A DNA stretch of 64,000 bases, from the NCBI GenBank assembly GCA_963703955.1, contig CAVPGK010000021.1, positions 1 to 64,000 on the forward strand, written 5' to 3'. The translations under genes and the position numbers were made by a program. The notes beneath the pieces were generated by a model, which was not told the DNA's origin, searched no databases, and saw nothing but the letters and a program-made list of their open reading frames with translations. How positions within the stretch are numbered: position 1 is the first letter of the stretch; every line of letters begins with the position of its first letter. Positions 10,622 through 59,834 of the stretch are shown here, one piece after another. This DNA is from Nitrospirota bacterium. Lineage in GTDB: Bacteria; Nitrospirota; Nitrospiria; Nitrospirales; Nitrospiraceae.

Positions 10622-10690
10622 ACTTGCCTTACCTTTTTCCTTCAACTCTCCCTCACCCGATGGGTGAACGTCCTACTGCGCGCATGTTTT

Positions 10691-10730
10691 CACCCACCCA
10701 CCCCAGGCGCGCCAAGACGCGCCCCTTCCC
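10691..10730. repeat. Repeat family A (C-rich leader plus hairpin with CCAAGA loop), inserted into a degenerate family B core
   Basis: cacccacccaccccaGGCGCG-ccaaga-CGCGCCccttccc, preceded by tactgcgcgcat. Confidence 0.85.
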
Positions 10731-10757
10731 GGAGCGAGCGTCTCACCCTCCCTCTTA

Positions 10758-10853
10758 GAGAGGGCGGATGGGGTGGCTCCCACTGAGCGCATCGAGCGAG
10801 CACTTCCGATGTGCGCGCTCTGCGAGCACAGGAGCCACCCCATCCGCCCTCTC
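10758..10853. repeat. Repeat family B: conserved core closed by a 23-bp perfect inverted repeat
   Basis: Arms 10758-10780 and 10831-10853 are exact reverse complements; core cactgagcgcatcgagcgagcac-N7-gtgcgcgctctgcgagcac. Confidence 0.9.
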
Positions 10854-10856
10854 CCT

Positions 10857-11576
10857 CTATTCCCACGTTCTCGGCTTCTGATGCGCGCCGTCATACTCAC
10901 CCATGATAATTTTCCAAATCCATTCGTCCGGCAGTTCCACCTCCCAGCGCGGCATGGCCGACTTCCAGGGCATGCCCTCATTAGGAAGCCCAACCCCGCC
11001 CTTCTTGATTCGCCAGAACAGATAACTTTCCTGGAGCATCGCGATGGTGGTGGAGTCCGAAAAGTTCGCCGGGGGCGGATTGAAGCCTTTGGCGGCCGGC
11101 CCCTTGCCGTCGAAATTTCCTCCATGACACGGAGAGCAAAACGCGGCATAGAGCCCTTTTCCCGTCATGACGTTGTCCGGGGTATTGAGCACCGGATTCG
11201 AGAGACCCACAAATTCACCCGGAGGAGCCGGATGGATCGTCCGGTTTTCAGCAGGCGGCGCATCGCTCGGCGCCGTGCTGTTATAGGTCTGCCATCCGAT
11301 CAGGAGCGGAAACAGCACCAGCACCAGCATGCGGGCCGTCTTCATGGTTCCATCTTGGCCCTCCCCGCTCAAGAACCGAAAGATGGGCCCTAAAAACGCC
11401 TCCGTGGAATCGCCGCTCAGTGTCTCGAAAATCACGATACCGGTCGCCACGAGCGCGATGTAAAGAAAGATCAAACTAGCCGGCAACGGCGCCGTAAATA
11501 AGGGCAGTACGAATTTCAGAAAGAGGTAGGTCCCGACAATGATGATGACGGGCTTGACCAGCGCGTGTCCCTTCAT
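10857..11576 (-). CDS. Membrane-anchored monoheme cytochrome c
   Basis: Three N-terminal TM segments; CSPCH; distal Met in SAMP. Confidence 0.88.
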   Translation of the reverse strand: MKGHALVKPVIIIVGTYLFLKFVLPLFTAPLPASLIFLYIALVATGIVIFETLSGDSTEAFLGPIFRFLSGEGQDGTMKTARMLVLVLFPLLIGWQTYNSTAPSDAPPAENRTIHPAPPGEFVGLSNPVLNTPDNVMTGKGLYAAFCSPCHGGNFDGKGPAAKGFNPPPANFSDSTTIAMLQESYLFWRIKKGGVGLPNEGMPWKSAMPRWEVELPDEWIWKIIMGEYDGAHQKPRTWE

Positions 11577-11596
11577 AACGTCCACCTTCCTCACTT

Positions 11597-11739
11597 CAGG
11601 CTGCTGAAAAAGTCATCCAGCAGGCATTCTGGAGTAGCATTACGGAAACGGCCGCCTCACCACTCGGCGGCGTGCGCAAACGTGATGCTCGTTATTCCTC
11701 GCATCGCGCACCTTGCTGAAGGCCTTTTTGAACAGTCTG
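11597..11739. mobile_element. 143-bp MITE-like element with IS-type terminal inverted repeats
   Basis: Left end caggctgctgaaaaag; right end reverse complement cagactgttcaaaaag; no ORF. Confidence 0.65.
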
Positions 11740-11749
11740 ACCATGCCCT

Positions 11750-12352
11750 TTAGTTCGCCTGAGCCACGGTCACGGCTGAGGCGGTTTTCGTTGGCAGCGG
11801 CTGCGTAATCTCCGATGGGCTGACCGTGATCGGCTCTCCGCTCATCTGCTGCAGAAACGCGATCACGGACAGGATTTCATTATTGGAGAGTCCGATCGGG
11901 TTCTTATTGATGTGCGGCATCCGCGCGGGGTATTCCTTCGGCAGCCCCTCGTGCCGGTAGTCGAGATAGACGTACGCTTGCGGCTGCGTGAGACTCTCAT
12001 ACATGAATTCTCGGCTCAGCTTGGCTCCGATCCCCTTGAGGTCAGGGCACCGCGCCGACTCGCTCGGGCCGATCGAGTGACAGAGCGCGCACTGGCCCTT
12101 GCTGAAGAAGATCGTTTGGCCGATGGCGGCCATATCGGAGGCCGTCTTGATGGTGGCAACATCAAACTTCTCTTCAGCGGGCGGTAACGAAGCCATCTGC
12201 GGAACGCCCAGCGCAGTCATAGAAAACAGACCGAGAACGATGATGACGAATCCCACGACTCTAACGAATCGGGCCTGAATAAAAAGAAGGATGACGATCC
12301 CGAGGCCGATGACACAGAGACCAAGCACTTGCAACAACGCGACTTCACTCAT
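11750..12352 (-). CDS. Membrane-anchored monoheme cytochrome c
   Basis: Two TM helices; GQCALCH; RCPDLKGIG. Confidence 0.88.
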   Translation of the reverse strand: MSEVALLQVLGLCVIGLGIVILLFIQARFVRVVGFVIIVLGLFSMTALGVPQMASLPPAEEKFDVATIKTASDMAAIGQTIFFSKGQCALCHSIGPSESARCPDLKGIGAKLSREFMYESLTQPQAYVYLDYRHEGLPKEYPARMPHINKNPIGLSNNEILSVIAFLQQMSGEPITVSPSEITQPLPTKTASAVTVAQAN

Positions 12353-12402
12353 TTCCTTTTCCTCTCACACTCTCCCTCCACTGAGGCGCTGCTACTATTT
12401 AC

Positions 12403-12502
12403 GCGGGAGCGACCGCGTTGAGGTCCTACTGCGCGCATCGAGTGAGCACCGTCCTCGTGTGCGCACTCTGCGAGCACGGGACCTCAACGCGGTCGCTCCC
12501 GC
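12403..12502. repeat. Repeat family B copy with 24-bp perfect arms of different sequence
   Basis: gcgggagcgaccgcgttgaggtcc ... ggacctcaacgcggtcgctcccgc around tactgcgcgcatcgagtgagcac-N9-gtgcgcactctgcgagcac. Confidence 0.9.
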
Positions 12503-12524
12503 TTCCCACGACTAAAACAGCGCC

Positions 12525-14384: not shown

Positions 14385-14405
14385 AACGATCTCCTGTCCA
14401 GTGGG

Positions 14406-15380
14406 CTAGTGCTTATGCCCGTCGTCCGCCTGCTCACGCGAATCGGCTTTGCCTGCCCCAACGTCCTTCTTCGGCCCCTTCGCGGGTTCGGCCTTTGTCG
14501 CGCTGACCGGCTGGACCTTTGACGCGGGGGCGTTGACCGATCCCTTGCCTTTGTCCTTTTCTTTAGGATCCTTGCTTTCGGCCTGGGCCTTCGCTTCGAG
14601 CGCCTCAACAGCCGTCTCAGCCTGGGCAATCAATTTTTCTGTTCTCTGCAAGGTCTCGGTCGGCCTGATCGGCTGAACCTTTGCCGTTTTTACCTTCTCC
14701 TTATAATCCTCGTGAGGGTGGGGCGTCATTACCGGCATCACGGCCCAGAACAGCAACACCAGCACCACGCCCACCGCAGTAAAGGCGGCCAATAGAAGCG
14801 GCTGATCCACCGGCACTCGCATCAGATCCCACTGTCGCACCAAGGCCGGGTACGGCGCATCGGCGGGAGGCGCGGCCGATACCTGTTTCCGCACAATCCA
14901 TCCGACGAGATACAGCCAACCGAAGACCAGAATCAGCAAGATCGCAGTGGCCACACTGCTCCAGAGCACCAGCTCAATGCTGATGCGCTCCGCCACCGGG
15001 ATGCTCTGTAGCAGCGCCATGATGGAGGCCGTCACCGACTTGGCCACGGCCACTACCTGGCTTTCGATCATATAGGCGATGGGTAGGTAGACGGCGCTCA
15101 TGAGCGCGATTTGCCACCACAGCGTGAGCCCGATGGACTCCGGCGGTTTGATATGAAGACGTTCGAGAAAGACGGTCTTTGCCGTCACGTTGAGCGCCCA
15201 GATGTCGATGGGAATGGATAAGACGAGGAGGACAGCCAGCCCAGGCATCTCCCAAGGATGAACCCCCATGGCAAGCAGCAACAGTACGAGAACGCATTTG
15301 ATCGGAATACCGGTCCAGAAAGCCGGCCACGCGATGCTCAGGCCCAGTTTGACCGGCGGCATACTCGACATCTGTCCCAT
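14406..15380 (-). CDS. Hypothetical membrane protein of the respiratory operon
   Basis: Several TM helices; Lys/Ala-rich tail; operon position. Confidence 0.8.
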   Translation of the reverse strand: MGQMSSMPPVKLGLSIAWPAFWTGIPIKCVLVLLLLAMGVHPWEMPGLAVLLVLSIPIDIWALNVTAKTVFLERLHIKPPESIGLTLWWQIALMSAVYLPIAYMIESQVVAVAKSVTASIMALLQSIPVAERISIELVLWSSVATAILLILVFGWLYLVGWIVRKQVSAAPPADAPYPALVRQWDLMRVPVDQPLLLAAFTAVGVVLVLLFWAVMPVMTPHPHEDYKEKVKTAKVQPIRPTETLQRTEKLIAQAETAVEALEAKAQAESKDPKEKDKGKGSVNAPASKVQPVSATKAEPAKGPKKDVGAGKADSREQADDGHKH

Positions 15381-15388
15381 ACTCGTTT

Positions 15389-15559
15389 CACCGCCCAGCC
15401 CCAGCGTCATTTCACCCGGCCCGCCCTGAACCTGCCAAGACAGGCTCTTTCCCAGGACGCGCTCTTCCTATTTCACCCGCCCACCCCAGGCGTGCCGAGA
15501 CGCGCTCCTTCGTTCTATTGCACCCGCCCACCCCAAGCGCGCCGGGACGCGCTCCTTCC
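15389..15559. repeat. Cluster of family A repeats: one nested pair plus two tandem copies
   Basis: Outer copy 15389-15468 interrupted by inner copy 15413-15453 (cctg-ccaaga-cagg); further copies at 15474-15511 and 15521-15559. Confidence 0.85.
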
Positions 15560-15565
15560 GGCGGG

Positions 15566-16678
15566 CTATTCCAGGAACTCTCGGTTAATGATCGCGGATA
15601 CGGTAAAGACCAAAATTCCGATCATGACAAGCAGCCATCCGACGAGCGCGACCGGCCGCTTGAAGATGTTGCGCTCCGGACTTCGGTCGATGAAGGGTAA
15701 GGCCGCCAGCAGGGCCATGAATGCGCCAGGCAGCGCAATAGCCCCCAGGAACTGCCCGAATTCTCCAGCGAAAATTTTCAACCGCAACAGTTGGAAGAGA
15801 AATAGGAAGTACCACTCGGGCTCCGGATGGTACTCACCGGGATCCGGGGTGGCTTCTTCAAGCAGCACGACAGGCTCGATGAACGCGAGGCTGCAAATCG
15901 CGAAAAAGACGGCGGCCATCGCAACGACGTCCTTCCAGATCTGCCGCGGGAAGAAATAATCGGTTTTCGCCTTGAGTTCTTCTGAGCTTCCCCGGAAGGG
16001 ACCGGCCGGCCCGGCCTTTCTGAAGAAGAACAAATGGAGCCCGGCCAACGCCATGAGGGTCGCCGGAAGGATCATGACATGGATGACGAAGAACCGGCTG
16101 AGCGTCATTTGGCCGGGCGTCGGCCCGCCTTTCAAGAACCGGGCGATGAAGTCGCCGATGACCGGCGTCTTGTCCATGATCTCGACACCCACCGTCGTCG
16201 CCCAATAGGCGCGCTGGTCCCACGGCAGGAGATAGCCTGTGAACCCGAAGCCCATGACGATGCCGAACAGCGCGAGCCCCACCAGCCAGATCATCTCGCG
16301 TGGCTTTTTGTACGCGCCCCACAGAAACACCTGCGACATGTGGGCAAAGACCATCACGACCATAGCCGTGGAACCCCAGAAGTGATAGCTGAGCAAAAAC
16401 CACCCATAGTCCACTTCATGGATGATGTACTGGGTGCTGGCGTAGGCGTGATCGGCGCTGGGGACGTAATAGAACATGAGCATGATGCCGGTCACCGCCT
16501 GCATAATAAAGATGAAGAGCAGGACGGACCCGAACACGTAGGCCCAGCGGGAGCCGCCGGGAACGGGTTCATTGAGCATCTTGGCCTGAAGAGTCTTCAG
16601 ACCGACGCGCTCATCGATGAACGCGACAACTTTTTCGATCGCACTGGGTTGAGTGGCGACTGACCGCTCGGCATCCAT
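15566..16678 (-). CDS. qcrB: Cytochrome b subunit of a bc-type complex
   Basis: YHFWGS...AHM, GFTGYLLPWDQRAYWA, FFVIHV...GLH and PEWY motifs. Confidence 0.93.
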   Translation of the reverse strand: MDAERSVATQPSAIEKVVAFIDERVGLKTLQAKMLNEPVPGGSRWAYVFGSVLLFIFIMQAVTGIMLMFYYVPSADHAYASTQYIIHEVDYGWFLLSYHFWGSTAMVVMVFAHMSQVFLWGAYKKPREMIWLVGLALFGIVMGFGFTGYLLPWDQRAYWATTVGVEIMDKTPVIGDFIARFLKGGPTPGQMTLSRFFVIHVMILPATLMALAGLHLFFFRKAGPAGPFRGSSEELKAKTDYFFPRQIWKDVVAMAAVFFAICSLAFIEPVVLLEEATPDPGEYHPEPEWYFLFLFQLLRLKIFAGEFGQFLGAIALPGAFMALLAALPFIDRSPERNIFKRPVALVGWLLVMIGILVFTVSAIINREFLE

Positions 16679-17710: not shown

Positions 17711-17711
17711 G

Positions 17712-22332: not shown

Positions 22333-22457
22333 GGTTAGGCTGACCTCCGTGCTGGAGCGCGCTTGTTTCACCCAACCGCCCCAGGCGCGCCAAGACGCGC
22401 CCCTTCCCGGGAGCAGAGTGTGACTCGGCGGACGCACGCAGGGAGGTCAGCCTAGCC
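22333..22457. repeat. Family B copy (opposite orientation, 16-bp arms) with a family A copy inserted at 22369-22408
   Basis: Arms ggttaggctgacctcc / ggaggtcagcctagcc; B core halves flank ggcgcg-ccaaga-cgcgcc. Confidence 0.8.
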
Positions 22458-45771: not shown

Positions 45772-45847
45772 TGGAGGCGCCGAGCGGGTTCGAACCGCTG
45801 CATCGCAGTTTTGCAGACTGCTCCCTTAGCCACTTGGGTACGGCGCC
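45772..45847 (-). tRNA. tRNA-Cys(GCA), complete with CCA
   Basis: GGCGCCG...GCAGT CTGCAAA ACTGC...GGTTCGAACC...CGGCGCCTCCA cloverleaf. Confidence 0.97.
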
Positions 45848-45871
45848 TTTGGTTGTGTTTTCAAGCATTTC

Positions 45872-47074
45872 TCACGCAGGCTGCGCCTGGCTCACTAGGC
45901 CAGGTTGCGTCAGGGTTGCGGATTTGGCCGCTTCGGCGCTCATTCCCGGCCCTGCGTCTTGTGGGTCATCCAGTGCCTGCACATGGTGACGATTCGCACC
46001 TGGAAACAGGTAACAATAGATATTCAACGTGACGGAGATAGTACCATGGCCGAGTTGCTCCTGGATATACTTTGGATTGGCCCCTTGCTGAATGAGCAGG
46101 GACGCGAAGGTATGGCGCAGGTCATGAAATCGGACATGCCGCAGACCGGCCGCCTCCAGGCTGCGATACAGGGCCTTCCTCAGCGTGCGGGCACTCAACC
46201 GTTGATCGGAGGGGCCGAGAAATACCCACTCCGGCATCGGCTGGCCCTTCATCGCATACTCTAAACGCCTTGTCTCTTTCAAGGCCGCCAGGACAGCCGC
46301 TAATTGCGGTGACAGATCGACACGCCGGATCTTATGCGTCTTGGGCGTCGTCACCTGATGGCGCACGATTCCGCGCCGCACCTCAAGAAATTGGCCCCGG
46401 AAGTCGATATCCCCCCATTGCAGTCCGATCAATTCGCTTTCCCGCAGTCCGGTTCTGACCGCACAGAGCAAGACGGGATAGAACGCCGCCCAACGGTCCT
46501 GTGCCGTTTTGAGGAGGAGGCGGACTTCCTCAGCGGTCAACGGGTCAATATGGCTATTCGACGTGTCCCGCCGGCTGACCAAGCGGCCAGCGTTCAGGAC
46601 TGGATTGACGGTCACCAATCCATCATCGATGGCATGGTTGTAGGCCTCTTTCAGCGGTGTGAGAATGTTGTGCACGGTTTGCTTCTTGCGCCCGCTCGTC
46701 ACCAGCTCGGCAATCAGGCGCTTGACATCACTCCGCGTGACTTCATGCAGGGACCGCCCGCCGAGCGCCGGCAGAATGTGTTTCACAATGACCTTGCGAT
46801 ACTCGCTCGCCGTGCTTGCCTTACAATGCACGTCCGCATACGAGGAAAGCCACTCCATCAGATAATCCGCCACCGTGGGGATGCGGCCATCCGGCCGGGT
46901 GAGCGCACCTGTTCGCCACTCTGTTCGGCCCATTTCAGCTTGGCCGATAGTTTTTCGGCAAAGGCCTTTGCCTGTTTCTTGTCCTTGCCAAAGATCTTCG
47001 CCTTGCGCCGACCCTTCCAATCCGTCAGAACATACCAACCCTTTCCTGGTCGCTCACGTCAGTTTGACGCCCAT
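45872..47074 (-). CDS. Tyrosine integrase (two frameshifts in the N-terminal region)
   Basis: TGLRESE, HDLRHTFAS, LGH...TLNIY; AAGGAGG RBS plus MGVKL/RERPGKGWY start at 47074. Confidence 0.9.
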
Positions 47075-47216
47075 GGGACTTCACCTCCTTCTCGCCGAGC
47101 TCTCGCTCCAACAAGCTCCGAATATACCCGCTCGCGGTGTAGCTCTGTGTCCGCAAAGCGTCGAGCTTCGCCTTCAAGGATAGTGGCAATTGAATGACCA
47201 CTCGTTTCATTTGCAT
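47025..47216 (-). CDS. Small ribbon-helix-helix-like DNA-binding protein upstream of the integrase
   Basis: MKRVVIQLPLSLKAKLDAL...ASGYIRSLLEREL. Confidence 0.65.
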   Translation of the reverse strand: MQMKRVVIQLPLSLKAKLDALRTQSYTASGYIRSLLERELGEKEVKSHGRQTDVSDQERVGMF

Positions 47217-47236
47217 CTAACTTCATCCTCTCATCC

Positions 47237-47274
47237 GATAATATGGTGTATGATAATATGGTCCCATGATATCA
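47237..47274. promoter_or_regulatory. Operator-like repeats between divergent RHH genes
   Basis: gataatatggt twice (47237, 47252) plus palindrome tgatatca. Confidence 0.6.
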
Positions 47275-47342
47275 AACTAGCAAGATTGATGTAAAGTGAA
47301 TAAGATTGACAGCAACGATGCACGTGGTTACGGTACCGAGCG

Positions 47343-47522
47343 ATGTCGAACGAGACTACACGGCCCGCTAAACAGCAGCTTGGTATCCGTATCGACCAGG
47401 ACGTTGTTGTCGAAACCAAGGTCCTGGCTGCACGCCAGCGCCGACGCGTAAATGAGGTCGTGGAAGAAGCGCTCAAGGATTTACTGAAGAAATATCAGGG
47501 GAAGCGGAAGGAACGGCGATAG
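47343..47522 (+). CDS. 59-aa ribbon-helix-helix protein (not in the ORF track)
   Basis: Manual translation MSNETTRPAKQQLGIRIDQDVVVETKVLAARQRRRVNEVVEEALKDLLKKYQGKRKERR*. Confidence 0.75.
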   Translation: MSNETTRPAKQQLGIRIDQDVVVETKVLAARQRRRVNEVVEEALKDLLKKYQGKRKERR

Positions 47523-47534
47523 GAGTATATTGCC

Positions 47535-48125
47535 TTGACTGAATTCGTTACGTTTGGCGCCCTTGGCGTCATTGTTCTGATCATTGTCCTTGCTGGACGC
47601 CTCCCCCAGATGGGAGAACGTTTGGGGCAACTCCTCAAGCGGAGGCAGGCTTCCGGCAAAAGGGCCTCAGCGGCAGCGATACGTCACGAATCGGTACTTG
47701 CGGAGCAGTGGGCTCCGGCGTGCAGGAGACTAGATACCATCCTAGCCGTTCTCGGTCAGATCGGCGATGCTTTAGTTGTTGAAAGTGAAGCTATGGGGAC
47801 CAAAATTGCGGGGTTAGAGCGGCAGTTCGAACGAGAGTCAACCGCTGACAGAACCGAGGCCTTCAAAGCCCTACAGGATTCTAGTGAAAGGCAGAACCGA
47901 CGTTTGGAAATGGCCCGAGGCCTCTGGGACGAAGCCAATACGCTCGTACGGATTCTCTCTTTGAGTGCTGATGAATTAGCGCTTCAAGGGCATGCGGGGC
48001 GTTTGGGTCTCGGGAACAAGAATCGTGCTTGTCATTTCGCGGGCTTCCAGCGAGTTCGGTTTCTTGTTTTGCTTGTTCCCTTAGATTTACTTTGTCGCGC
48101 AGAAAATTCGCAGACCGGCGTATAA
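47535..48125 (+). CDS. Hypothetical protein with TatA-like N-terminal TM/amphipathic helix and coiled coil
   Basis: AGGAG RBS; VIVLIIVLAGRLPQMGERLG. Confidence 0.45.
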   Translation: MTEFVTFGALGVIVLIIVLAGRLPQMGERLGQLLKRRQASGKRASAAAIRHESVLAEQWAPACRRLDTILAVLGQIGDALVVESEAMGTKIAGLERQFERESTADRTEAFKALQDSSERQNRRLEMARGLWDEANTLVRILSLSADELALQGHAGRLGLGNKNRACHFAGFQRVRFLVLLVPLDLLCRAENSQTGV

Positions 48126-48499
48126 AGACTGATTGGTGGCTACGGTCACTAATCGCTGTCCTATTTCTCAAGCTAGTGAAGCCGTGGCGGGCAGCCACTT
48201 TTGCGAAATGTGCGGAGTCAGCCTGGATCATCGGCGGGCCAACGCACGCACTTGCGGACCGCGATGTCGAAAGCGCTTGAGCCTACGACGCTTACGGCAG
48301 TAAGGGGCTTAGGGCTGGGGTGACTCTTTTCGGCTTCCATCTTTAAATTTCTTAAAATTGTTCAGCCAACCGAGGATGGAGTGGGATGATGGACAGGCGC
48401 GCGGCATCTTGCGTACGCGTGGCTATCGCGGGTTGTTCTATCCGCCTCATCTCCGTTATTCATGCGCCTCTCCTGCCGTTTTCCGGCGATGAAGGACAC

Positions 48500-48640
48500 G
48501 TTTCCCGTATTGTCACGAGGAGTGCAGGAGTTGGGCGGATGGGCCAGCCTCTCACTCGTCCAGCGGTATGCGCACGTTTCCCCCGTCCAGGAAGGCGGAG
48601 GCGGTCGAAGAGCTCGTGAGAAATTCTACTACGCTATTTA
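48500..48640 (+). pseudogene. 3' remnant of a second tyrosine integrase
   Basis: VQELGGWASLSLVQRYAHVSP matches the box II / catalytic Tyr region. Confidence 0.75.
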
Positions 48641-48686
48641 CTACGCCCGAAACGCGGCAATTGGTAACCGCTTGAAACTACGGCCC

Positions 48687-48728
48687 GGAGGGGTGACGGA
48701 GCGGCCGAACGTGCCGGTCTTGAAAACC
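48687..48728 (+). tRNA. 5' half of tRNA-Ser(TGA) within an attP-like relic
   Basis: GGAGGGGTGACGGAGCGGCCGAACGTGCCGGTCTTGAAAACC; D-stem and anticodon loop intact, remainder absent. Confidence 0.8.
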
Positions 48729-48981
48729 TCGCGGAGCGGGGTAACGGAACCCGATGAAAACGCGTGAAACACTGCATGGATACTGGCGAAACGCAGTGAG
48801 CGATCGTTCCCCCGCCGTACCCGAAAGTACCCCGATTTACCCCGGCATTCCCCTACGCGATTCACTACATTTTCTCGCGGCCCCTAGCGATTGCAACGCG
48901 ACAAGGGCGGACACTCTCTCTGCCTTGGGGCCGCGTCTTTGGAGAGGCGCGAGGAGAGACGCGCATGGGCACCACACGAGC

Positions 48982-49158
48982 ATGTGGAATCAGGACTGGT
49001 TCAAGGAAGATGATTACGACGCCGATGACCTGGGCCGATTCCCGCAGGGCGTCGGCTTTCCCGGCGCACAGTCAGCCGACTGGGGCTGGGCGCAACACAT
49101 GCTGGCATCTCTGGCCGAAAACGGACGAGCCGCGATCGTCATCGACACCGCGGGCTAA
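48982..49158 (+). pseudogene. hsdM: Internal fragment of a type I R-M methyltransferase subunit
   Basis: MWNQ...GRFP...SADWGWAQHMLASLAENGRAAIVIDT. Confidence 0.7.
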
Positions 49159-49267
49159 AGTGGGGCAGTTCTCTTTTTGAGCAACAAAGCTATCTCACTT
49201 TACCTGACTGCAATTCAGCAGCATACGATCCTGATAGACTTTGGCCCCGAATAAGTCGCGCTTTTAG

Positions 49268-50854
49268 GTGTCGTCAAGGATGCCCCACGAATACAAGACT
49301 CTCCCGCTCGCTGTCTGGAAGCCAATGGCTCAACTTTTCAAGAGAATTTCCGGTTCTACGATTGCGAGCGTTTTGATCCTCATCTGTCTGATCAGCATCC
49401 CGGAGTACATCGTCCAGGGATTGTCGCTGTTTCGTCTCGACGAAGCGGGATACGGAGACAGCTACATCCTCTACGATGTGCTCCAGTTCCAGAAAACCGG
49501 TAGGATCTATCGAAACCTGGCAGAGCCGCCCTTTTTGCCGGCGCAGTACAGCCCTCTCGTTTATGTGCTCTACTCACTTCCAGGGCGCGTGGCGAGTTGG
49601 GAGAATCTCTTCGTGGCGCCGCGGCTGGTCGCGATTGCCGCATTCCTTGCCTGCATCTGTCTGATTACATCCATTGTCCGTGTTCTCTTTCGTTCAGGCC
49701 TGGTTTGGGTCTGGGGTCTTCTCCTTCCGTTTTCAATCCGCCTTATACCCCTCTGGATTCTTCAGCTGCGTGGCGACTTTCCGGGGCTCGCTCTCAGTCT
49801 GCTTGCGATTCGCTTCCTGTTATCCGACTCTCGCTGGGCGGTGCCGCTTGCCGCGGTGTGTGCAGGATTGGCAGTACAAGTAAAGTTCACATTCGTCGCT
49901 GCGGCCTCAGCAGGGGCTGCATGGCTGCTGGTTCAAAGACGATGGCGAGACCTCGCTCGATTTATCGCGTTCTTTGCGGTCTCATCCATGGGCCTGTTTC
50001 TTCTCTATTCTCTGCGTGAGCCAGGGATGATTTCACAAATGCTCTCCCTGTCTCCCGGTGTCAGAAACGTCGGCGGAAACGTGGTGCTCATGAATAAGGT
50101 AGCCGGCGAACTCGTGATACTTCTGAGCCTGGTCGGTCTGGCAAGTATGGAATGGCGCGCGTCGGCAAAGGAAACCCTCCTGGCTCTCTATCTTGCAACA
50201 TCCTTCATGGTTGCCGCCGTGACGGCCGTTCAGGCAGGTGCGAATACCAACTACTATTGGGAAACGCTCTTCGCTTCCATCCCCTTTGCTGTGCTCGGAG
50301 TGTTGCGGCTGATGGAACTGGCAGGACGGCATACGGCGCTGGGGCCGGCACTGGCTGTCTTCCTTTTCATTCATTCCCTCTTTCCTGTCGCGATGAGCGC
50401 GTATGAAGGCGTCCCAACGCTCAAAAAGGGATGGGCGGAATCCGGCGACGATGAAATGCGCAAACTGAGCCAGGTTCTGGCAGGCTCGCGCATGTTCTCA
50501 TCGTTTCCGCGTCTGGCTCTCCTTGACCCCAATCCTCCCTTGACGGAACCTTTCCTTCTGTCCTACCTTCACCGCCTCGGGAAAGTGGATCTGGGACCCT
50601 TCACACAGCCTCTCCTCAGACGCGAATATGATGTTGTGATTACCTATGATTCGCCGCGCGTCTATCGCAATGTCAACCAGTTAGACCCGGAACTGCGTAG
50701 CGCCATCGCGAGTTCGTACAAGCCGTATTGCACGTTCCACCATGGCCTGTTCCACTTCCCGGATGGTGTGGATCCGTCCACGAGCATCCTGAAGGGGCGC
50801 TTGAGAGAGATTGGTTGCTCGCCGGTTTCCGACGAAGGCACGAAGAACTGGTAG
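49268..50854 (+). CDS. Polytopic membrane protein, GT-C-like glycosyltransferase candidate
   Basis: About 11 TM helices; QYSPLVY, LRGD motifs; periplasmic tail. Confidence 0.65.
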   Translation: MSSRMPHEYKTLPLAVWKPMAQLFKRISGSTIASVLILICLISIPEYIVQGLSLFRLDEAGYGDSYILYDVLQFQKTGRIYRNLAEPPFLPAQYSPLVYVLYSLPGRVASWENLFVAPRLVAIAAFLACICLITSIVRVLFRSGLVWVWGLLLPFSIRLIPLWILQLRGDFPGLALSLLAIRFLLSDSRWAVPLAAVCAGLAVQVKFTFVAAASAGAAWLLVQRRWRDLARFIAFFAVSSMGLFLLYSLREPGMISQMLSLSPGVRNVGGNVVLMNKVAGELVILLSLVGLASMEWRASAKETLLALYLATSFMVAAVTAVQAGANTNYYWETLFASIPFAVLGVLRLMELAGRHTALGPALAVFLFIHSLFPVAMSAYEGVPTLKKGWAESGDDEMRKLSQVLAGSRMFSSFPRLALLDPNPPLTEPFLLSYLHRLGKVDLGPFTQPLLRREYDVVITYDSPRVYRNVNQLDPELRSAIASSYKPYCTFHHGLFHFPDGVDPSTSILKGRLREIGCSPVSDEGTKNW

Positions 50855-51011
50855 TTAAGTGCTATAGGCATCCTGATACCAAGATGTTAGAGTTACTGCC
50901 ACTTCTGAACCTGCGTTTGCTGGAAGTCTGAAACGAAGCTTCTACATACGATTGGTTTGTCATCTCCTTCTGTTAGGTGTCGAAAAGCAGCTGAGAGCAG
51001 AATGGTGAACC

Positions 51012-52022
51012 ATGCGAAAAGTCGTCACAGCCACCTCTGCAACGCAAGCCAGGAGGCTGCCTCCTCTTTTCTTCTTGGGCAGCCTCATGATCGTATTCGG
51101 CCTCGGTGTGTATTTCTTCGGCATCGTCTTCTCGATGTTCCGCCTGATCTTCCAGTTGGGAGAACCGTTCTATACGTGGAACACGATGATTCTGTGGTAT
51201 AGCGGTCTTCCTACCACACTGGGCGTTTGTCTCGCAGGTCTTGATCTGGCCCTGCTGTTTCCCGCAAAGCGCAGAGAGTCGCGGCGAAGGATTCTCGCTC
51301 CCGTTCTGGACAGACACGTGGTCGTGGCGCTGACAGCCTACAATGACGAAAAGAGCATAGGGCTTGCGGTGGCGGATTTCGTGAGCCACCCACTAGTAAA
51401 GCGCGTCATCGTTGTCGACAACAACAGCCGTGATCGGACTTCCGAAGCTGCCATGGAAGCGGGAGCCCGTGTCGTTGTGGAAAAAGAACCGGGATATGGA
51501 CGATGCGTCTATAGATGCTTCAAGGAAGCCCTGAGCGAAGACGGCGAATTGATCGTTCTCTGCGAGGGCGATATGACCTTCCGCGCCGGCGACATTGACA
51601 AACTGCTGGCCTATGTCGACCATGCCGATGTCGTGAATGGCACGCGTATCGTCGAGCAACTGCGGGATTACTCCACGCAGTTATCGACGTTCATGTATTA
51701 CGGCAACTTCTTTGTGGGAAAGTTGCTGGAACTGAAGCATCTGGGACGCGGCACATTCACGGACATCGGAACAACCTATAAGCTGCTCCGGAGAGACAGT
51801 CTTGTGCGTCTGATGCCGCAACTGAATCCGGCGGTCAATATGGAGTTCAATGCGCACTTTCTCGACACGGCTCTTGGAAGCGGCGAAAGGCTCGTCGAGT
51901 GTCCGATTACGTTTCACCCCAGAGTGGGTGTAAGCAAGGGCGGCAATGTGAATAATGGGCGTGCACTGAAAGTCGGACTCCGGATGATCCTGGGCTTGTG
52001 CTTTGGATGGCCTACCCCATGA
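51012..52022 (+). CDS. GT2 (DPM/GtrB-like) glycosyltransferase with N-terminal TM helices
   Basis: TAYNDE, VVDNNSRDRT, GYG, EGD motifs. Confidence 0.88.
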   Translation: MRKVVTATSATQARRLPPLFFLGSLMIVFGLGVYFFGIVFSMFRLIFQLGEPFYTWNTMILWYSGLPTTLGVCLAGLDLALLFPAKRRESRRRILAPVLDRHVVVALTAYNDEKSIGLAVADFVSHPLVKRVIVVDNNSRDRTSEAAMEAGARVVVEKEPGYGRCVYRCFKEALSEDGELIVLCEGDMTFRAGDIDKLLAYVDHADVVNGTRIVEQLRDYSTQLSTFMYYGNFFVGKLLELKHLGRGTFTDIGTTYKLLRRDSLVRLMPQLNPAVNMEFNAHFLDTALGSGERLVECPITFHPRVGVSKGGNVNNGRALKVGLRMILGLCFGWPTP

Positions 52023-52657
52023 CGCGAGAAATGTACTTTAAGACGCGGTTCGTGCAGGACGCACAACGCGATGTCCTCTGGCAGACTCTTTGTCGCTACT
52101 ACTTCAGCCATCGGATTAACCCTGACGATTGCGTGCTGGAACTTGGCGCGGGATATGCCTGCTTTATCAATGCCGTCGTCGCCAAGCGAAGAATCGCTGT
52201 CGATTCATGGGATGGTTTCACCAAACATCTGGTATCCGGTGTGGAAGGCCACGTCGGTGACGTGACCGATCTCGGATTTCTAAAGCCTTCATCCGTGAAT
52301 TTCGTTTTCGCCAGTAACCTCTTCGAGCACGTCAGCCAGGAGGCCTTCGCCTTGGTGTTGCAACAACTGAAGACTGCGCTGGCGCGCGGCGGAACTCTGA
52401 ATATCCTGCAGCCCAACTACTATTACGCATATCGGGAGTACTTCGACGATTACACCCACCGCACCGTATATACCCACAAGAGCATTTGTGATTTTCTGGA
52501 AGCATATGGCTACAAGGTAATGGAATGCCATCCGCGATTCCTGCCACTCACGGTGAAATCCCGGTTACCTGTCTCACCGATACTGATACGACTTTATCTG
52601 TCCCTTCCCTGGAAGCCGATGGGGAAGCAGATGTTCATTCGCGCAAGGGTGAAGTGA
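52019..52657 (+). CDS. Class I SAM-dependent methyltransferase
   Basis: VLELGAG, SNLFEH, FDDYTH; ATGA overlap. Confidence 0.88.
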   Translation: MTREMYFKTRFVQDAQRDVLWQTLCRYYFSHRINPDDCVLELGAGYACFINAVVAKRRIAVDSWDGFTKHLVSGVEGHVGDVTDLGFLKPSSVNFVFASNLFEHVSQEAFALVLQQLKTALARGGTLNILQPNYYYAYREYFDDYTHRTVYTHKSICDFLEAYGYKVMECHPRFLPLTVKSRLPVSPILIRLYLSLPWKPMGKQMFIRARVK

Positions 52658-53072
52658 AGAACGCCGGGCTCACGCGTAGTGAGACCCGGGATAGAGCAGT
52701 TCATCCTAGCGTTTGGAGATCGTGTTTACCGCCTGGCATACAAGCACCTGCGGCCAGAGGAGTACAGCCTGCTGGTCAGGCTGCCCCACTACAGCCGTAG
52801 GATCAGCCAGGAAGCGCATAGGACCGTCCTTCGCACCGATCCCCGAGAGGCGGTCATTTTCAAAAGTTGTGCGGGAGGGATAAACGCCACTGAGACGGTG
52901 GTGGCTGGGGGAGCGCTGCCCCCGGCCTCCCACCATCCCTTGAATGCCGGCGCCCCGCGCAGGTTGCGGCTGGGTTGCGGAGTTGCGGACAGGTGGCTAA
53001 GGTATGACGCAACCTGCCCACTGCCTGACACACAAGATGTTGTGGAACCAAGCACTTAGGGTGGACTACTAT

Positions 53073-53114
53073 CAGTTTTGCAGACTGCTCCCTTAGCCAC
53101 TTGGGTACGGCGCC
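53073..53114 (-). tRNA. 5' half of tRNA-Cys (att duplicate)
   Basis: Identical to 45806-45847; diverges at the last anticodon-stem base. Confidence 0.92.
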
Positions 53115-53122
53115 TTGACGGC

Positions 53123-53220: not shown

Positions 53221-54420
53221 CTACCGCTTGTTGGGAAGGACGGGGATTTCTCGAGTCGAGGACGACTGTGTGCTTGTCAATGACACCGGCTGTTCGGGGT
53301 ACCTTTTTCCACCATGAAGTGATGGGGCCGATTCGATCTGGTCAGAATCCTCCGCTTCTTTCTCTTTCGCCAAAATTTCGACTTCCTGAATCAGTGTCTC
53401 CATCAACTCTTCGGAGGGCACCTTGCGCAAAAGCTTGCCCTTCTTGAAAAGAATCCCGACACCTTCGCCGCCCGCGATGCCGATATCCGCTTCCTTCCCC
53501 TCGCCGATGCCGTTGACCACGCAGCCTAACACCGAGACGTTCAACGGGGCTCTGATGTGGCCGAGGCGCTTCTCCAACTCGTTCGCCAGGCGGACCACAT
53601 CGATCTCCACTCGGCCGCAGGTGGGGCAGGCGATCACGTTGATCCCGCGGTGGCGCAGTTCCAGCGACTTCAGAATTTCAAATCCGACCTTGACCTCTTC
53701 CACGGGGTCGGCCGCCAACGAGACACGGAGCGTATCACCGATGCCTTGCGACAGCAGCCAGCCGATGCCGATGGCCGATTTCACCGAGCCGGTCAGAATC
53801 GTACCGGCTTCGGTGATCCCCAAATGGAGCGGGAAATTGGACTGCTGCGAGAACAGCCAGTAGGCATCGACCGCCATGTGCACGTCAGACGCTTTCAGCG
53901 ACACTTTCATGTTGGTAAAGCCCACGTCCTCAAGCGCGTGCACGGCGTTCAGCGCAGATTCCGCCAGGGCTTCAGCCGTCGGATAGCCATATTTGTCGAG
54001 CAGGTGTCTCTCTAACGACCCGCCGTTTACGCCGATGCGTAAAGGAATCCCCCGGTCATTGACCGCCCTGATGACCTCGGCGGTCTTCCACCACGCACCG
54101 ATATTGCCCGGATTGATGCGCACGCAATCAACCACTTCGGCCGCCTTCAACGCCAGCCTATGGTCGAAATGAATATCGGAGATCAGCGGCACGGTCATCT
54201 GCGCCTTGATTTTGGGCAGCGCGTTGGCAGCCTCCATGTCCGGCACCGCCACGCGGATGACCTCGCAGCCAGCCTCCTCTAAACGGCGAATCTGCTCGAC
54301 CGTCGCCTTGATGTCGCGAGTGTCGGTAGTCGTCATGGATTGGACGGAGACTGGCGCGTCCCCTCCGATCTTGACCTTGCCGACCTTGATCTGTCTGGTT
54401 TTTCGCCGCGTGATGTACAT
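53221..54420 (-). CDS. ispG: HMBPP synthase
   Basis: VQSMT, DIHF, RINPGN, ACPTCGR, GCVVNG. Confidence 0.97.
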
Positions 54421-54441
54421 GCTCGTAGAGCTATCTTATTC

Positions 54442-56418: not shown

Positions 56419-56597
56419 ACAGTCTTCTCCTCGTAAGGTGGCGGCTTAGCCTTCTGAGCTTATGAATGAAGTAGCTTGCTGACAGGGGTTCTTCGCAGGT
56501 ATGGGGTAGTTGACTAAGCTTCCGGCTAGTTTCCCACAGATTGTTTGTCATGTCAAGCACTTAGGCCAAGATCTTTAGACCGGCCTAGCTAATAGGG

Positions 56598-57629
56598 TCA
56601 CCGAGGAAACCGATAGGTGACGACGGTGGACAGGGTAAAATCAGCCGCCGCTCCCGTGATCAAATCTACATTCTGAATCCCATAGACCTGCCAGAGCAGA
56701 TTGTTCCGGAGGCGATAGTTGAACCCTGCGGCGACTTCAGTGACACCCCGATCTAGGACCTTGATACCGGTTCCATAGTAAGGACTTGAATAATAATCAA
56801 ATTGTGCGGTGATGGAGAACCGCGGCGACCAGAGATACTCGAGCCCGACGAGGCTCGTTATGAACGGTTGCAGTGTCAGACCCTCCACCTTACCTGTGGG
56901 AAAAACACCATTGACGTTGCCATAAAAAACCAGGGTCGACCGAACCGCCTTTTCGATCGCCAGCCCGATTCCGAGATCGACCTCGCCGCTCCCGAACAGT
57001 TGGCTAGAGTTTCCGGTGGGCGCCTTGACTGCAACACGTAAGGACACGGCAGGGAGACGTTCGGTCTGGGACAGGAGCAGATACTTACCGTGCAGCGAAA
57101 TATCGCTCAATCCGAACTGATCCTCCCCTCCCGCAAACAGCGTCTGGCCGTTTTTACTGACGTTGTACGCGTATCCGATCCCTTGCAAGGCCTGCCGGGT
57201 TCCGGACAACCCGCTTGTGGCTCGTTCAACCGCGGTGATGAGCCCGTTCAGCGCCCCTCCGCCGTACCGATAGATAGCCGGGATCTCAAGCCCAACTTCC
57301 AGGCGGTTGGTGAGCCCATAACGAAGGAACAGCGCCGAGCGCTCCGTCTCCAGATTCATCGTCGTCCGTACAAGCGCGAAGAAGGGTGGGTTTGTCTCCT
57401 CACTGGCGATCATATTCGTCACCGCCAACTCGACCCGAACATCCAGCGTGCCTTTCTTGAGGACAGCCGCCGGAGCTCCGGGCATGTTCAAAAACAAGAG
57501 CTGCAGGGGTTGGAAATTCCTGACCGGAAGCGGGCCGAATCCCTCGGCTTCTGCCTCGGCTTGGTGAGCACCGACGAGCACAAGGAGAACGGCCACAGTC
57601 GCCGCCCAAGCGAGTTTCAGACGACTCAT
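56598..57629 (-). CDS. Outer-membrane beta-barrel-like protein (DUF3187-like)
   Basis: Signal peptide; GPLPVRN; alternating beta strands; C-terminal YRF. Confidence 0.7.
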   Translation of the reverse strand: MSRLKLAWAATVAVLLVLVGAHQAEAEAEGFGPLPVRNFQPLQLLFLNMPGAPAAVLKKGTLDVRVELAVTNMIASEETNPPFFALVRTTMNLETERSALFLRYGLTNRLEVGLEIPAIYRYGGGALNGLITAVERATSGLSGTRQALQGIGYAYNVSKNGQTLFAGGEDQFGLSDISLHGKYLLLSQTERLPAVSLRVAVKAPTGNSSQLFGSGEVDLGIGLAIEKAVRSTLVFYGNVNGVFPTGKVEGLTLQPFITSLVGLEYLWSPRFSITAQFDYYSSPYYGTGIKVLDRGVTEVAAGFNYRLRNNLLWQVYGIQNVDLITGAAADFTLSTVVTYRFPR

Positions 57630-57646
57630 GCTTCGCGGGTGCTCAG

Positions 57647-58846
57647 CTAGAAGGGAAAATCAAGTCCGGCAAAGACCGCGCCTCCTTCGCTGCTGTAGCC
57701 ATAATCGATCCGCCCGACCATACTCGGCCTGACCAATCCGCGAAAACCGATGCCCGGCGTGACTTCATAGTCGCGGAGCGGTCGCTTACTGAACGCGTTA
57801 AAGACTTTGCCCATATCGACGAAGGGCGCGATTTCAAAATCGGCTGCCACGTTAAAAATCTTGGTTCGCATCACGTGAATGCGTTCTTCAATGTTCAGCA
57901 CCACCAGATGGTCGTCGATAAACCGGTCCACACCATAGCCTCGAAGGTTATTCTGCCCACCGAGTGAGCTTAGTTCATAAAAGGGCACCTGACTCCCGAA
58001 TGTCAATTGCATCTCGCCGCGCACCACGAGGATCATCCGCTTCGACTCGCTCGGAAACAGCTTTTTGACCTCGAGCCCATACCGGTAGTACAACGGATTG
58101 TCCCCGTTGCTGAAATTTTGATTCAGTTCTGCGTAGGCGGTGAATCGAGTCCCGGCCGTCGGCGTCACCAAACTGTCGCGGGTATCGTAATAGAACGTGA
58201 CCCGACTGCCCAGAATCGAAGCCCCGTCCATTCCGGCCACCTGCGGAAACACCTGGGCAGAGAACGGCAGGTCGGGCACGATGCCTGGCTCGACACGCAC
58301 GTCGCGATACCGTTGACCTACCGAGACTTGCGTCACCTCATTGAGATGCAAACCGAATCTCCAACTGGCACGAATTTCTCTGGCCGTATAGTTCGTCTGA
58401 TCGCTTAACGTCGTCTGTTGGCTGATCCCGAAGAAACGTGACGTCGCATTCTTGAAGAACGAACCGCCGACATCGAATGCGTATCGGCCATGGCTGAAGG
58501 CAGGGTCCGAGTAACTGAGGACAAGCTTCCGCTCGATTTTTTCCGAATACGATCCGATGAATACGAACTGCCGCCCCCCTGGCTCGTACTTGAACAGATT
58601 GAAGGACCCTCGGGCGCCCACGAACGAATTCACGATGAACATCGGGGCGACGAGGTACTTAAGCTCTCCGTCCGGGGCCGTCTTAAGAATCGGCACGATG
58701 AATCCGGCATCATTGCCGTCATTTTTGCTGGTCGAGACGGAAGGAATCGGAAAGTACGACGTATCGGCGCGAGTCGGCTTGACACTACCGAGAACACAGG
58801 CAAGTGCCACGAGAAGAGACAGGAAGACGCGCAAGCCCGCAGGCAT
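57647..58846 (-). CDS. BamA/TamA (Omp85) family barrel-only protein (start approximate)
   Basis: LGGQNNLRGY; C-terminal GLDFPF; no POTRA region. Confidence 0.82.
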   Translation of the reverse strand: MPAGLRVFLSLLVALACVLGSVKPTRADTSYFPIPSVSTSKNDGNDAGFIVPILKTAPDGELKYLVAPMFIVNSFVGARGSFNLFKYEPGGRQFVFIGSYSEKIERKLVLSYSDPAFSHGRYAFDVGGSFFKNATSRFFGISQQTTLSDQTNYTAREIRASWRFGLHLNEVTQVSVGQRYRDVRVEPGIVPDLPFSAQVFPQVAGMDGASILGSRVTFYYDTRDSLVTPTAGTRFTAYAELNQNFSNGDNPLYYRYGLEVKKLFPSESKRMILVVRGEMQLTFGSQVPFYELSSLGGQNNLRGYGVDRFIDDHLVVLNIEERIHVMRTKIFNVAADFEIAPFVDMGKVFNAFSKRPLRDYEVTPGIGFRGLVRPSMVGRIDYGYSSEGGAVFAGLDFPF

Positions 58847-59031
58847 TCGGGACACAACGCAGGATCGTTGCAGAATATTGAACCGCACCAACACCGTCGC
58901 GCTCGGTTGGTCACATCTCCTTGTCGATCGAGCGACCCTGCAGGCGATTCGAGTGCCTGTCACACCACCGCATCTGGGCAGCTATGCGGCCGAATCGGGA
59001 GCCCAGAGCAGCTAGACCAACCGTGGAACAC

Positions 59032-59691
59032 TCACCTGTCTTTGTCGTCAGCCTTCGGAGCTGAGAAGGTGTCCGACTTATGGCGCAGCTTCTCGACCAA
59101 ATCTTCATACGAGGACGAGTGGAGAATCTTGGAGAATTGCCCTCGGTAGTTGCTGACCATACTGACCCCATCCAACACAAGGTCATAGACACGCCACTCA
59201 TCTGATTTTTTCAGGAGCCGATAATCCAGAGGGATTTCGGTCTTGCCTGTCATGATCTTGGTTCGCACCTCGGCATACCCGTCCTTGAGCCGCTCGTTCA
59301 GGAACTTGACCTGTTGCCCCGAGTAATCTTGGATTCTACTGGCGTACGTGTTGGTAAGGAGTTTCTGAAACAGTCCCACGAATTCGTGCTGTTGTGTTTC
59401 ATCCAATTTCGGCCACTGCGCGCCCAGGGATCTCTTGGCCATTTCCTCATAACTGAACCGTTCCTCGAACAGCTTTTCGAGTTTCTGGCGCCGCTCCCTA
59501 GCGTGCTCCGGCTTTTTCAGTTCCTTGTCCTCTAAAACGTGAACCATTTGATCAAGCAGATTCTGCACCGATTCGGTCGCGGTCATGGTGGCCAGACTCC
59601 GCGACCCCCCTATCATGAGGCTTCCCATGACAAGACCGAGCACGATCGGCCTCGCAGCGTACCGATTCGGTCTTTGAATCAACGACCACAT
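59032..59691 (-). CDS. mlaC: MlaC/Ttg2D (HpnM-like) lipid-binding protein
   Basis: MAKRSLG..W; WRVYDLVLDGVSMVSNYRGQF. Confidence 0.9.
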   Translation of the reverse strand: MWSLIQRPNRYAARPIVLGLVMGSLMIGGSRSLATMTATESVQNLLDQMVHVLEDKELKKPEHARERRQKLEKLFEERFSYEEMAKRSLGAQWPKLDETQQHEFVGLFQKLLTNTYASRIQDYSGQQVKFLNERLKDGYAEVRTKIMTGKTEIPLDYRLLKKSDEWRVYDLVLDGVSMVSNYRGQFSKILHSSSYEDLVEKLRHKSDTFSAPKADDKDR

Positions 59692-59733
59692 ATTCCCTCC
59701 ACTTTCGTTAAGCCTTCTTGCCTGTCTTGTCCA

Positions 59734-59834
59734 ACTGCGCGCATCGATTACACCCGCCCACCCCAGGCGCCATCTCACCCGCCCGCCCCGAGCTGGCCAA
59801 GACCAGCTCTTTGCCCGATGGACGCGCCCCTTCC
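59734..59834. repeat. Truncated family B core followed by a nested pair of family A repeats
   Basis: actgcgcgcatcga; then outer A 59751-59834 interrupted by inner A (gagctgg-ccaaga-ccagctc). Confidence 0.82.

What the first reader, a model, noticed from the sequence alone, without database searches (positions are those of the whole stretch)
10669..59834. Hierarchical nesting: A inserts into B and into the loop of A
Seen: A follows the B left core actgcgcgcat at both about 10675 and about 59734, and sits in the central loop of B at 22369. A also interrupts the hairpin loop of another A at 15389-15468 and 59751-59834, where the outer stem resumes as ggacgcgc. Five nested events in 64 kb imply hairpin-targeted insertion. 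Inference: an active micro-element system whose mobiliser is not in this window.
Basis: partly seen in the sequence, partly recalled or inferred. Interest (0 to 1): 0.7.

Follow-up and report, generated by a model that had tools for sequence, protein, structure and literature searches.

The report
Russian-doll micro-repeats of Nitrospira bacteria
In this Nitrospira-type bacterium a 45-base hairpin repeat sits inside two larger repeats and inside copies of itself at six fixed spots; it likely jumps next to a short DNA motif rather than aiming at hairpin loops, the nested forms are likely copied onward as units, and the enzyme that would move it was not found.

Summary
All five junctions are in the sequence at the stated places. 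A is a 45-nt asymmetric hairpin repeat (about 120 hits, 80 loci genome-wide) without terminal inverted repeats or target duplication. It sits at six fixed sites: two in B, three in a third repeat C (a miniature of an IS5-family element in this genome) and its own loop. A-bearing B and C copies are not one clade, so these sites were filled repeatedly or A was spread by gene conversion. At 37 sites outside the repeats A shows no hairpin preference (p=0.94); it follows a short G-poor 5' motif instead. A-in-A is a stereotyped 90-nt unit found in 12 other genomes, so the five nests are not five independent events. No mobiliser was found (Y1/Y2 HUH, RT, IS110, small GIY-YIG checked). The best model is single-strand insertion next to a motif, plus copying of composites. 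This scan noted the same family earlier on other contigs of this genome; my paper searches found no description.

The parts
10675..10685 (+). Left half of a B core (ACTGCGCGCAT), host of A at the left-core site
   Evidence: B consensus
10688..10732 (+). A, 45 nt: T-Y-N, CACCC/C-rich tract, 6-7 bp stem with CCAAGA loop, TTCCC-G-N tail
10733..10758 (+). Short continuation of the first B core and a pyrimidine-rich linker; the outer B right half is missing
   Evidence: the same pattern in L115, L145, L174, L194
10759..10852 (+). Complete empty B (23-bp arms, 22 of 23 paired, around a 50-nt core), just behind the stop codon of the cytochrome c gene on the minus strand
11598..11738 (-). C, IS5-family-derived miniature element (this copy carries a D-type module, no A)
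   Evidence: ends match the IS at G000:C6:156137-157460
12405..12500 (+). Complete empty B
15386..15468 (+). A-in-A composite (outer A with an inner A at about 15410-15455)
15471..15561 (+). Two further A copies head to tail (about 15471-15514 and 15518-15561)
   Evidence: the whole cluster is absent in an X6 contig and shorter in an X2 contig
22336..22453 (-). B on the minus strand, host of A in its terminal loop
22366..22410 (+). A inside the terminal loop of that B
59734..59747 (+). Left half of a B core, intact up to ATCGA, followed directly by A
59748..59837 (+). 90-nt A-in-A composite (inner A 59773-59818)
59865..59958 (+). Complete empty B behind the mlaD stop codon

Best explanation
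A is a 45-base non-coding repeat that has been inserted, without duplicating its target, at six fixed sites inside the repeats B, C and A and at many unrelated sites including genes; it likely moves as single-stranded DNA, cut and rejoined by an unidentified enzyme acting from elsewhere that likely recognises its hairpin and would join it just after a short G-poor motif, and the nested forms are likely copied further as whole units. Shown: the unit length, no duplication, the six sites, the 5' motif bias, the covarying stem, absence from orthologous sites, and non-monophyly of filled hosts. Inferred: that the motif belongs to the target, that filling was repeated rather than spread by conversion, the single-strand route and the enzyme. 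Composites likely persist because A lands away from the host's ends: C keeps its IS5-type termini and B keeps its arms, and A-in-A keeps both outer ends.
For: Unit of 45 nt (90 nt for A-in-A) and no duplication at 14 clean sites, mean shared run 1.7 vs 1.6 in the control. Stem covaries: 491 of 534 pairs Watson-Crick vs 358 in shuffles (max 382); loop CCRAGA in 76 of 89. Junctions fall only at B+32-38, B-40-45, C+19-26, C+57-65, C-18-26 and the A loop; none in B arms or C termini. 28 of 80 A loci touch B or C, which cover 1.3% of non-coding DNA. The 9 C copies filled at the first site are not a clade among 34 (AU p=3e-7); the 9 filled B are not among 28 (p=0.005; core only 0.0015). 16 of 20 unique sites in other genomes carry H-Y-H-W just 5' of A vs 11% background, with G at 4 of 80 positions; a prophage copy seen later also fits. 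Y at -3 in 88 and W at -1 in 90 of 105 starts in this genome. A is absent from 29 GlmU and 12 proteasome-ATPase orthologues and from 46 of 46 other cytb spacers. L097/L098 and L106/L108 share one B locus without and with A. Both simple A and A-in-A occur in the same host sites.
Against: No Y1 HUH gene in G000 (82% complete), G004 (95%) or G019. None of 30 Y1 loci from relatives is flanked by A. The motif was read from the same sites on which it was scored, and only 2 of the 8 A starts in this window match it strictly. Replication bias (41:18) is not separable from transcription bias (46:13; 8:6 on lagging-strand genes). The trees rest on about 100 columns, and conversion between copies also breaks monophyly; core exchange at fixed arms is seen.
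Confidence: 0.55

Rival explanations
1. A entered B, C and itself only a handful of times (about one founder per site); all other nested copies arose by copying of composites with their host and by gene conversion between homologous repeat copies.
For: A-in-A is stereotyped. Only 2 of 22 copies keep the outer left stem intact, 20 of 22 have G before the resumed GA (6 of 89 intact loops do), and only 1 of 22 has the commonest stem as the inner unit. In 17 printed copies from other genomes none has that inner stem. Shared derived composites exist (C22:15692 with C11:56275; C10:262624 with C11:149077). Inner subtypes track the site in G004 and G007. Cores are exchanged between B loci with fixed arms.
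Against: Two different cut positions at the first C site and varied junctions. The outer A at C3:9613 shares a private stem variant with its neighbouring solo A, which fits nesting in place. Homology arms of 15-25 nt are short for RecA (general knowledge).
Confidence: 0.22
2. A is aimed at single-stranded hairpin loops, so that any extruded loop is a target.
For: Three of the six sites are true terminal loops (B tip, C central hairpin, A loop) and two more are loops of local hairpins. One in-gene site (copA) lies in a 7-bp hairpin loop.
Against: No hairpin excess at 37 non-repeat sites (score 8.0 vs 8.6, p=0.94; 5 rows had a mis-parsed right end, and the other 32 give 3 at or above score 12 against 14% expected). 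No excess at 53 other loci of this genome (p=0.14, low power). Used motif sites average 0.46 unpaired against 0.42 for 35 unused ones (worked by hand). The same terminal loops on the opposite strand are unused.
Confidence: 0.13
3. A is a host-selected RNA or protein-binding hairpin whose copies spread slowly; nesting in loops only reflects what the cell tolerates.
For: Strong compensatory change in the stem and a conserved loop. The better-folding G-rich strand is mostly the mRNA strand (46:13; 16:6 outside B and C, p=0.05).
Against: Patchy presence at orthologous sites; insertions inside GlmU, the proteasome ATPase and CopA; no Rfam match; both orientations occur.
Confidence: 0.07
4. A spreads through an RNA copy made by a reverse transcriptase, such as a diversity-generating retroelement enzyme acting from elsewhere.
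For: The folding strand is often the transcribed strand and ends in a short A-rich run. DGR-type RT loci exist in G000 and G007, and one has an A stem-loop in its broken target region.
Against: No RT hit in G004, G019 or G032, which carry A. The G000 RT has an internal stop. Unit length is fixed and there is no target duplication.
Confidence: 0.03

Closest known systems
IS200/IS605 ends and their Y1 HUH transposases (IS608, ISDra2; PMC6006769, Background section read)
   Same: No inverted ends; a subterminal hairpin of about 20 nt; a short target motif on one side only; no target duplication found.
   Different: One hairpin rather than two; 45 nt in all; the motif is degenerate; no Y1 gene found in the genome; lagging-strand bias not separable from transcription.
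REP/REPIN/BIME repeats with RAYT (PMC3116915 passages; PMC6006769 passages)
   Same: [quoted passage not shown]
   Different: No GTAG/GTGG foot, arrays are head to tail rather than inverted doublets, a long one-sided tail, frequent in-frame copies in genes, and no RAYT flanked by A.
Small dispersed repeats (SDR) of Nostoc (Elhai et al. 2008; paper not held; seen only as a citation and one passage in PMC4390886 on precise SDR5 insertion in HIP1)
   Same: Very small mobile repeat with site-precise insertion and, as I recall it, no known transposase.
   Different: Different size, sequence and phylum; its target here is not a fixed palindrome. Detailed comparison was not possible.
Rickettsia palindromic elements (RPE; size from the table in PMC3184786; in-frame habit recalled)
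   Same: Hairpin repeat found in frame inside conserved proteins.
   Different: RPEs are about 105-146 nt end-to-end palindromes; A is 45 nt and asymmetric.
MITEs of IS5-family insertion sequences (for host C)
   Same: C has terminal inverted repeats matching an intact IS5-family element of the same genome (NF033581 above cut-off).
   Different: C is an ordinary MITE; what is unusual is the A and D cargo it carries at fixed internal sites.
Ssn/NTS single-strand nuclease repeats (PMC11893778 passages)
   Same: Directional hairpin repeat read as single-stranded DNA.
   Different: No small GIY-YIG gene in G000, and none of 21 such loci in relatives is bracketed by A.

Membership tests
IS200/IS605-derived miniature element (A) | Cognate Y1 HUH transposase in the genome or flanked by the element in kin | tested here: not met
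   PF01797 absent from G000 (82% complete), G004 and G019; 30 of the Y1 loci from 41 genomes carry no A
IS200/IS605-derived miniature element (A) | Separate subterminal hairpins at left and right ends | tested here: not met
   One hairpin only
IS200/IS605-derived miniature element (A) | No target-site duplication | tested here: met
   14 clean sites, 1.7 vs 1.6 nt in control
IS200/IS605-derived miniature element (A) | Conserved target tetranucleotide on one side | tested here: inconclusive
   Degenerate H-Y-H-W at 16 of 20 unique sites, defined on the same set; 2 of 8 window starts match strictly
IS200/IS605-derived miniature element (A) | Orientation tied to the lagging-strand template | tested here: inconclusive
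   41:18 with replication, 46:13 with transcription, 8:6 where they disagree; polarity inferred from skew in a draft
IS200/IS605-derived miniature element (A) | Circular single-stranded intermediate | not testable with these tools
   Only assembled contigs of public runs were available
REP/REPIN (A) | GTAG/GTGG tetranucleotide at the 5' foot of the hairpin | tested here: not met
   The foot reads CCCC/CCCA on one strand and AAGG on the other
REP/REPIN (A) | Inverted doublets as the unit | tested here: not met
   77 of 80 loci hold one orientation only
REP/REPIN (A) | RAYT gene flanked by copies | tested here: not met
   array neighbours are housekeeping genes
MITE (A) | Terminal inverted repeats and target duplication | tested here: not met
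IS5-family MITE (C) | Terminal inverted repeats shared with an autonomous IS5-family element | tested here: met
   G000:C6:156137-157460, 366-aa transposase, NF033581 249.5 bits over cut-off 140; the C consensus ends match the IS left end at 15-16 of the first 18 bases
IS5-family MITE (C) | Target-site duplication of the family | not tested
   Flanks were read but not scored
Ssn/NTS repeat (A) | Small GIY-YIG gene bracketed by the repeat | tested here: not met
   G000 has only a 700-aa UvrC-like hit; 21 small GIY-YIG loci checked, one with a tail-less A stem about 400 nt away in a broken DGR region
Nostoc SDR (A) | Sequence, size class and target rule of an SDR family | not testable with these tools
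   Primary paper not held

The most novel reading that the evidence does not exclude
A is the smallest member of an undescribed single-strand insertion system of Nitrospiria: one hairpin is enough for an enzyme outside the known Y1, Y2, DDE, IS110 and Ssn families (perhaps a host protein) to paste 45 nt, or 90 nt and more with cargo in the loop, next to a four-base motif without scarring, and it returns again and again to the same spots in other structured repeats.
Probability: 0.25. Interest if true: 0.8.

Novelty: new variant of a known kind. Interest (0 to 1): 0.52.

Why it matters
How tiny repeats without inverted ends or a linked transposase spread is an open question (REPs without RAYT, SDRs, RPEs). 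This family gives a testable case: a defined 45-nt unit, a candidate target motif, natural cargo in the loop, empty and filled alleles, and in-frame insertions in conserved genes (GlmU, proteasome ATPase, CopA). It also shows that Russian-doll repeats need not mean loop targeting: a few permissive sites plus copying of composites give the same picture. If an unknown enzyme is responsible, it would be a scar-free single-strand insertion chemistry.

Tried and rejected
Mobiliser searches that found nothing linked to A: PF01797, PF04986 (its control set did not ring either, so it shows nothing), PF00078, PF01548 (two IS110 copies, no A beside them), PF01541, genes next to the 13 larger arrays. Viral contigs: 0 matches with the long pattern and 2 contigs of one tailed-phage segment with the shorter one, no recombinase-like ORF recognised by eye. 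Plasmids: no real match. Rfam: only the tRNA at gathering level, and below-threshold miRNA hairpin hits. General hairpin targeting was rejected. The regex junction tables were noisy and are used only for individual junctions. The first C tree had duplicated rows and was redone; the first B tree had chimeric rows and was redone (one copy left out for lack of a left anchor). The hand-typed class counts were replaced by the recount. In-frame insertions in GlmU and the proteasome ATPase lie in variable loops, so they cannot fix the exact target. No reads or contigs were laid on the 59.7-kb site, so its alleles are unknown. The 80 metagenome loci reached only 87% protein identity. Six paper look-ups failed. 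Ten paper searches gave no description of these Nitrospira repeats; subscription papers are mostly outside the library.
Full report
Setting. The window is G000:C21:1-64000 of a 3.3-Mb, 82%-complete draft. Genomes that share the repeat are titled Nitrospira, Nitrospiraceae or Nitrospirales. The repeats lie in spacers of a cytochrome operon, a radical-SAM region and the mla operon. The five junctions are present as described.

Anatomy of A. A profile built from 29 seeds gives 122 hits (E up to 1) in 80 loci (E up to 0.5). The unit is T-Y-N, a CACCC-led C-rich tract, a 6-7 bp stem with a six-base loop, and TTCCC-G-N: 45 nt at clean sites and 90 nt for A-in-A. In 89 hairpins 491 of 534 stem positions pair, against 358 when right arms are shuffled among copies; the loop is CCAAGA or CCGAGA in 76. 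The G-rich strand folds slightly better (A-C 20 vs G-T 9 on the C-rich strand, p=0.06). There is no terminal inverted repeat and no duplication at 14 clean sites. A strict pattern occurs in 19 of 41 genomes of the order, with 16-42 matches in five and none in two families.

Hosts. B is a hairpin of about 96 nt: a 50-nt core between arms of about 23 bp that differ from copy to copy yet pair (361 Watson-Crick, 41 G-T and 9 A-C of 440 positions in 20 empty copies). It is antisense to the transcript in 35 of 36 informative cases. Its ends match an intact IS5-family element in the same genome, so C is an ordinary MITE with a mobiliser on hand.

Where A sits. Aligned to host consensus, junctions fall only at B+32-38, B-40-45, C+19-26, C+57-65 and C-18-26, plus the loop of A (22 copies, two of which are one duplicated segment). 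An automated count puts 28 of 80 A loci in B or C, which cover 1.3% of non-coding DNA; by eye about 18 more have half-decayed hosts. The same sites are filled in G004, G006, G007 and G019. The rest are solo copies, head-to-tail arrays (6 of 20 multi-copy loci lie between divergent genes) and in-frame insertions in genes.

A is an insertion. GlmU carries 450 nt where 29 orthologues have 258-288; the proteasome ATPase has 291 against 228-243 in 12. The spacer that holds the 15381-15565 cluster has no A in 46 of 46 other loci. In public runs, an X6 contig (14 differences in 401 nt) joins 15378 to 15566 with 20 other letters, an X2 contig (13 in 505) has a shorter allele, and an X1 contig has the window's allele and may be the source sample (4 of 24 listed runs laid, tables cut). 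These are relatives about 97% alike, so recent movement is suggested and present activity is not shown. At the spacer of window 10598-10856, B is present in 13 of 71 orthologous loci, needing 8 changes on the gene tree. L097/L098 and L106/L108 share the same B arms without and with A, but their cores also differ, so cores are exchanged between loci.

One founder or many? The 9 C copies filled at the first site are scattered among 25 empty ones (9 changes, AU p=3e-7). The 9 filled B copies are scattered among 19 empty ones (8 changes, p=0.005; core only 6 changes, p=0.0015). The alignments are short and most forks are open. Copying one composite therefore does not explain these sites; repeated insertion or gene conversion does. 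A-in-A is different. Only 2 of 22 copies keep the full outer left stem, 20 of 22 have G before the resumed GA where only 6 of 89 intact loops do, and only 1 of 22 has the commonest stem inside. The GTDB scan found the same build in 20 loci of 12 genomes (the pattern required the shortened outer stem). In the 17 printed it sits in B, in C, in arrays and at unique sites, some apparently coding. So A-in-A behaves as one old 90-nt unit, with a few independent nestings such as C3:9613, whose outer A shares a private stem with its neighbour. The two nested copies in this window are probably members of that unit.

What defines the target? Hairpins do not. At 37 sites outside repeats the best stem around the junction scores 8.0 against 8.6 at random positions (p=0.94; 5 rows were mis-parsed on the right, and leaving them out gives 3 of 32 high scores against 14% expected). 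A broader test in this genome was also negative but weak. Instead the four bases 5' of A are G-poor: H-Y-H-W at 16 of 20 unique sites in other genomes against 11% background (the motif was read from these sites, so the p-value is inflated), and at a prophage copy found afterwards. Over 105 starts in G000, -3 is a pyrimidine in 88 and -1 is A or T in 90. The used host sites coincide with this motif in the empty consensus, but 35 other motif sites are unused, and used sites are no more unpaired (0.46 vs 0.42, by hand). Only 2 of the window's 8 A starts match strictly. Three of the six host sites are real terminal loops, so a contribution of structure in the repeats is not excluded.

Strand. The C-rich strand of A is antisense in 46 of 59 loci and on the lagging-type strand in 41 of 59; where the two disagree the split is 8:6. 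Outside B and C it is 16:6 antisense. This fits insertion into exposed single strands but does not choose between replication, transcription and selection.

Mobiliser. None was found: no Y1 HUH gene in G000, G004 or G019 and no A beside 30 Y1 loci; one broken RT, and none in three of four other A-rich genomes; two IS110 copies without A; only a UvrC-sized GIY-YIG hit in G000 and no bracketing by A at 21 small GIY-YIG loci; housekeeping genes beside the arrays. G000 and G019 are incomplete.

Mechanism and comparison. Asymmetry, one structure-conserved hairpin, no duplication and a one-sided motif are how IS200/IS605 ends and REPs behave (PMC6006769, Background read, passages), so A most likely works like a single-strand cut-and-join element. 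It fails membership of that family, of REP/REPIN, of MITEs and of Ssn/NTS repeats (PMC11893778, passages). Insertion of repeats into repeats is known for REPINs (PMC3116915, passages), and precise insertion is reported for SDR5 (PMC4390886, one passage; the primary paper could not be read). RPE sizes are from PMC3184786 (passages). PMC12306157 lists Nitrospira only in a count table; bioRxiv 10.64898/2026.09.22.753630 does not mention it. No supplements were read. Earlier notes of this scan describe the same A and B families on other contigs of this genome.

Verdict. The nesting is real and worth attention. Its cause is more likely a small motif-guided element with favoured sites plus copying of composites than loop-seeking insertion. 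Interest 0.52; a new variant of small non-autonomous mobile repeats with the enzyme still unknown.

Noticed in passing
window 45772-53116: A tyrosine integrase (45872-47038) beside tRNA-Cys, with an exact 44-nt direct repeat at 45806 and 53073: a 7.3-kb island carrying an N6-methylase fragment, a glycosyltransferase, a methyltransferase and a 524-aa ORF without Pfam or NCBIfam match.
   Followed up: partly
window 10675-10852 and 59734-59958; L145, L115: B also nests in B: a B left half, a pyrimidine linker and a full B. L145 keeps a whole B inside the terminal loop of another.
   Followed up: partly
window 11630-11715; G000 C6:210190-210409 and others: A fourth module, D (about 70-80 nt), sits inside many C copies at two or more positions.
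   Followed up: no
L097/L098 versus L106/L108: B arms are inherited with the locus while the core is swapped; the L097 core is identical to the core at G000 C11:56599.
   Followed up: partly
G000 C6:156137-157460 (L222): Intact IS5-family element whose ends match C.
   Followed up: yes
G000 C22:6009-7802, C3:28298-30133, C12:146012-148777, C10:207856-212241: In-frame A insertions in GlmU (three or more units), proteasome ATPase, CopA and a probable Lhr-type helicase (name from recall); reading frames stay open.
   Followed up: partly
G000 C10:126444-130049 (L218); G007 C7:77125-81140 (L249, L252): Diversity-generating-retroelement-like loci (recognised by eye): a broken RT in G000; in G007 a small GIY-YIG gene between the accessory gene and the RT, and an A stem-loop in the truncated target region next to an IS30-like ORF.
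   Followed up: partly
L254 2664-2708, L255: A copy of A between tail-assembly and tape-measure genes of a tailed phage or prophage.
   Followed up: partly
G000 C8:10087-10486 and C20:90727-91126: The same A array and its flanks occur twice, as part of a duplicated segment.
   Followed up: no
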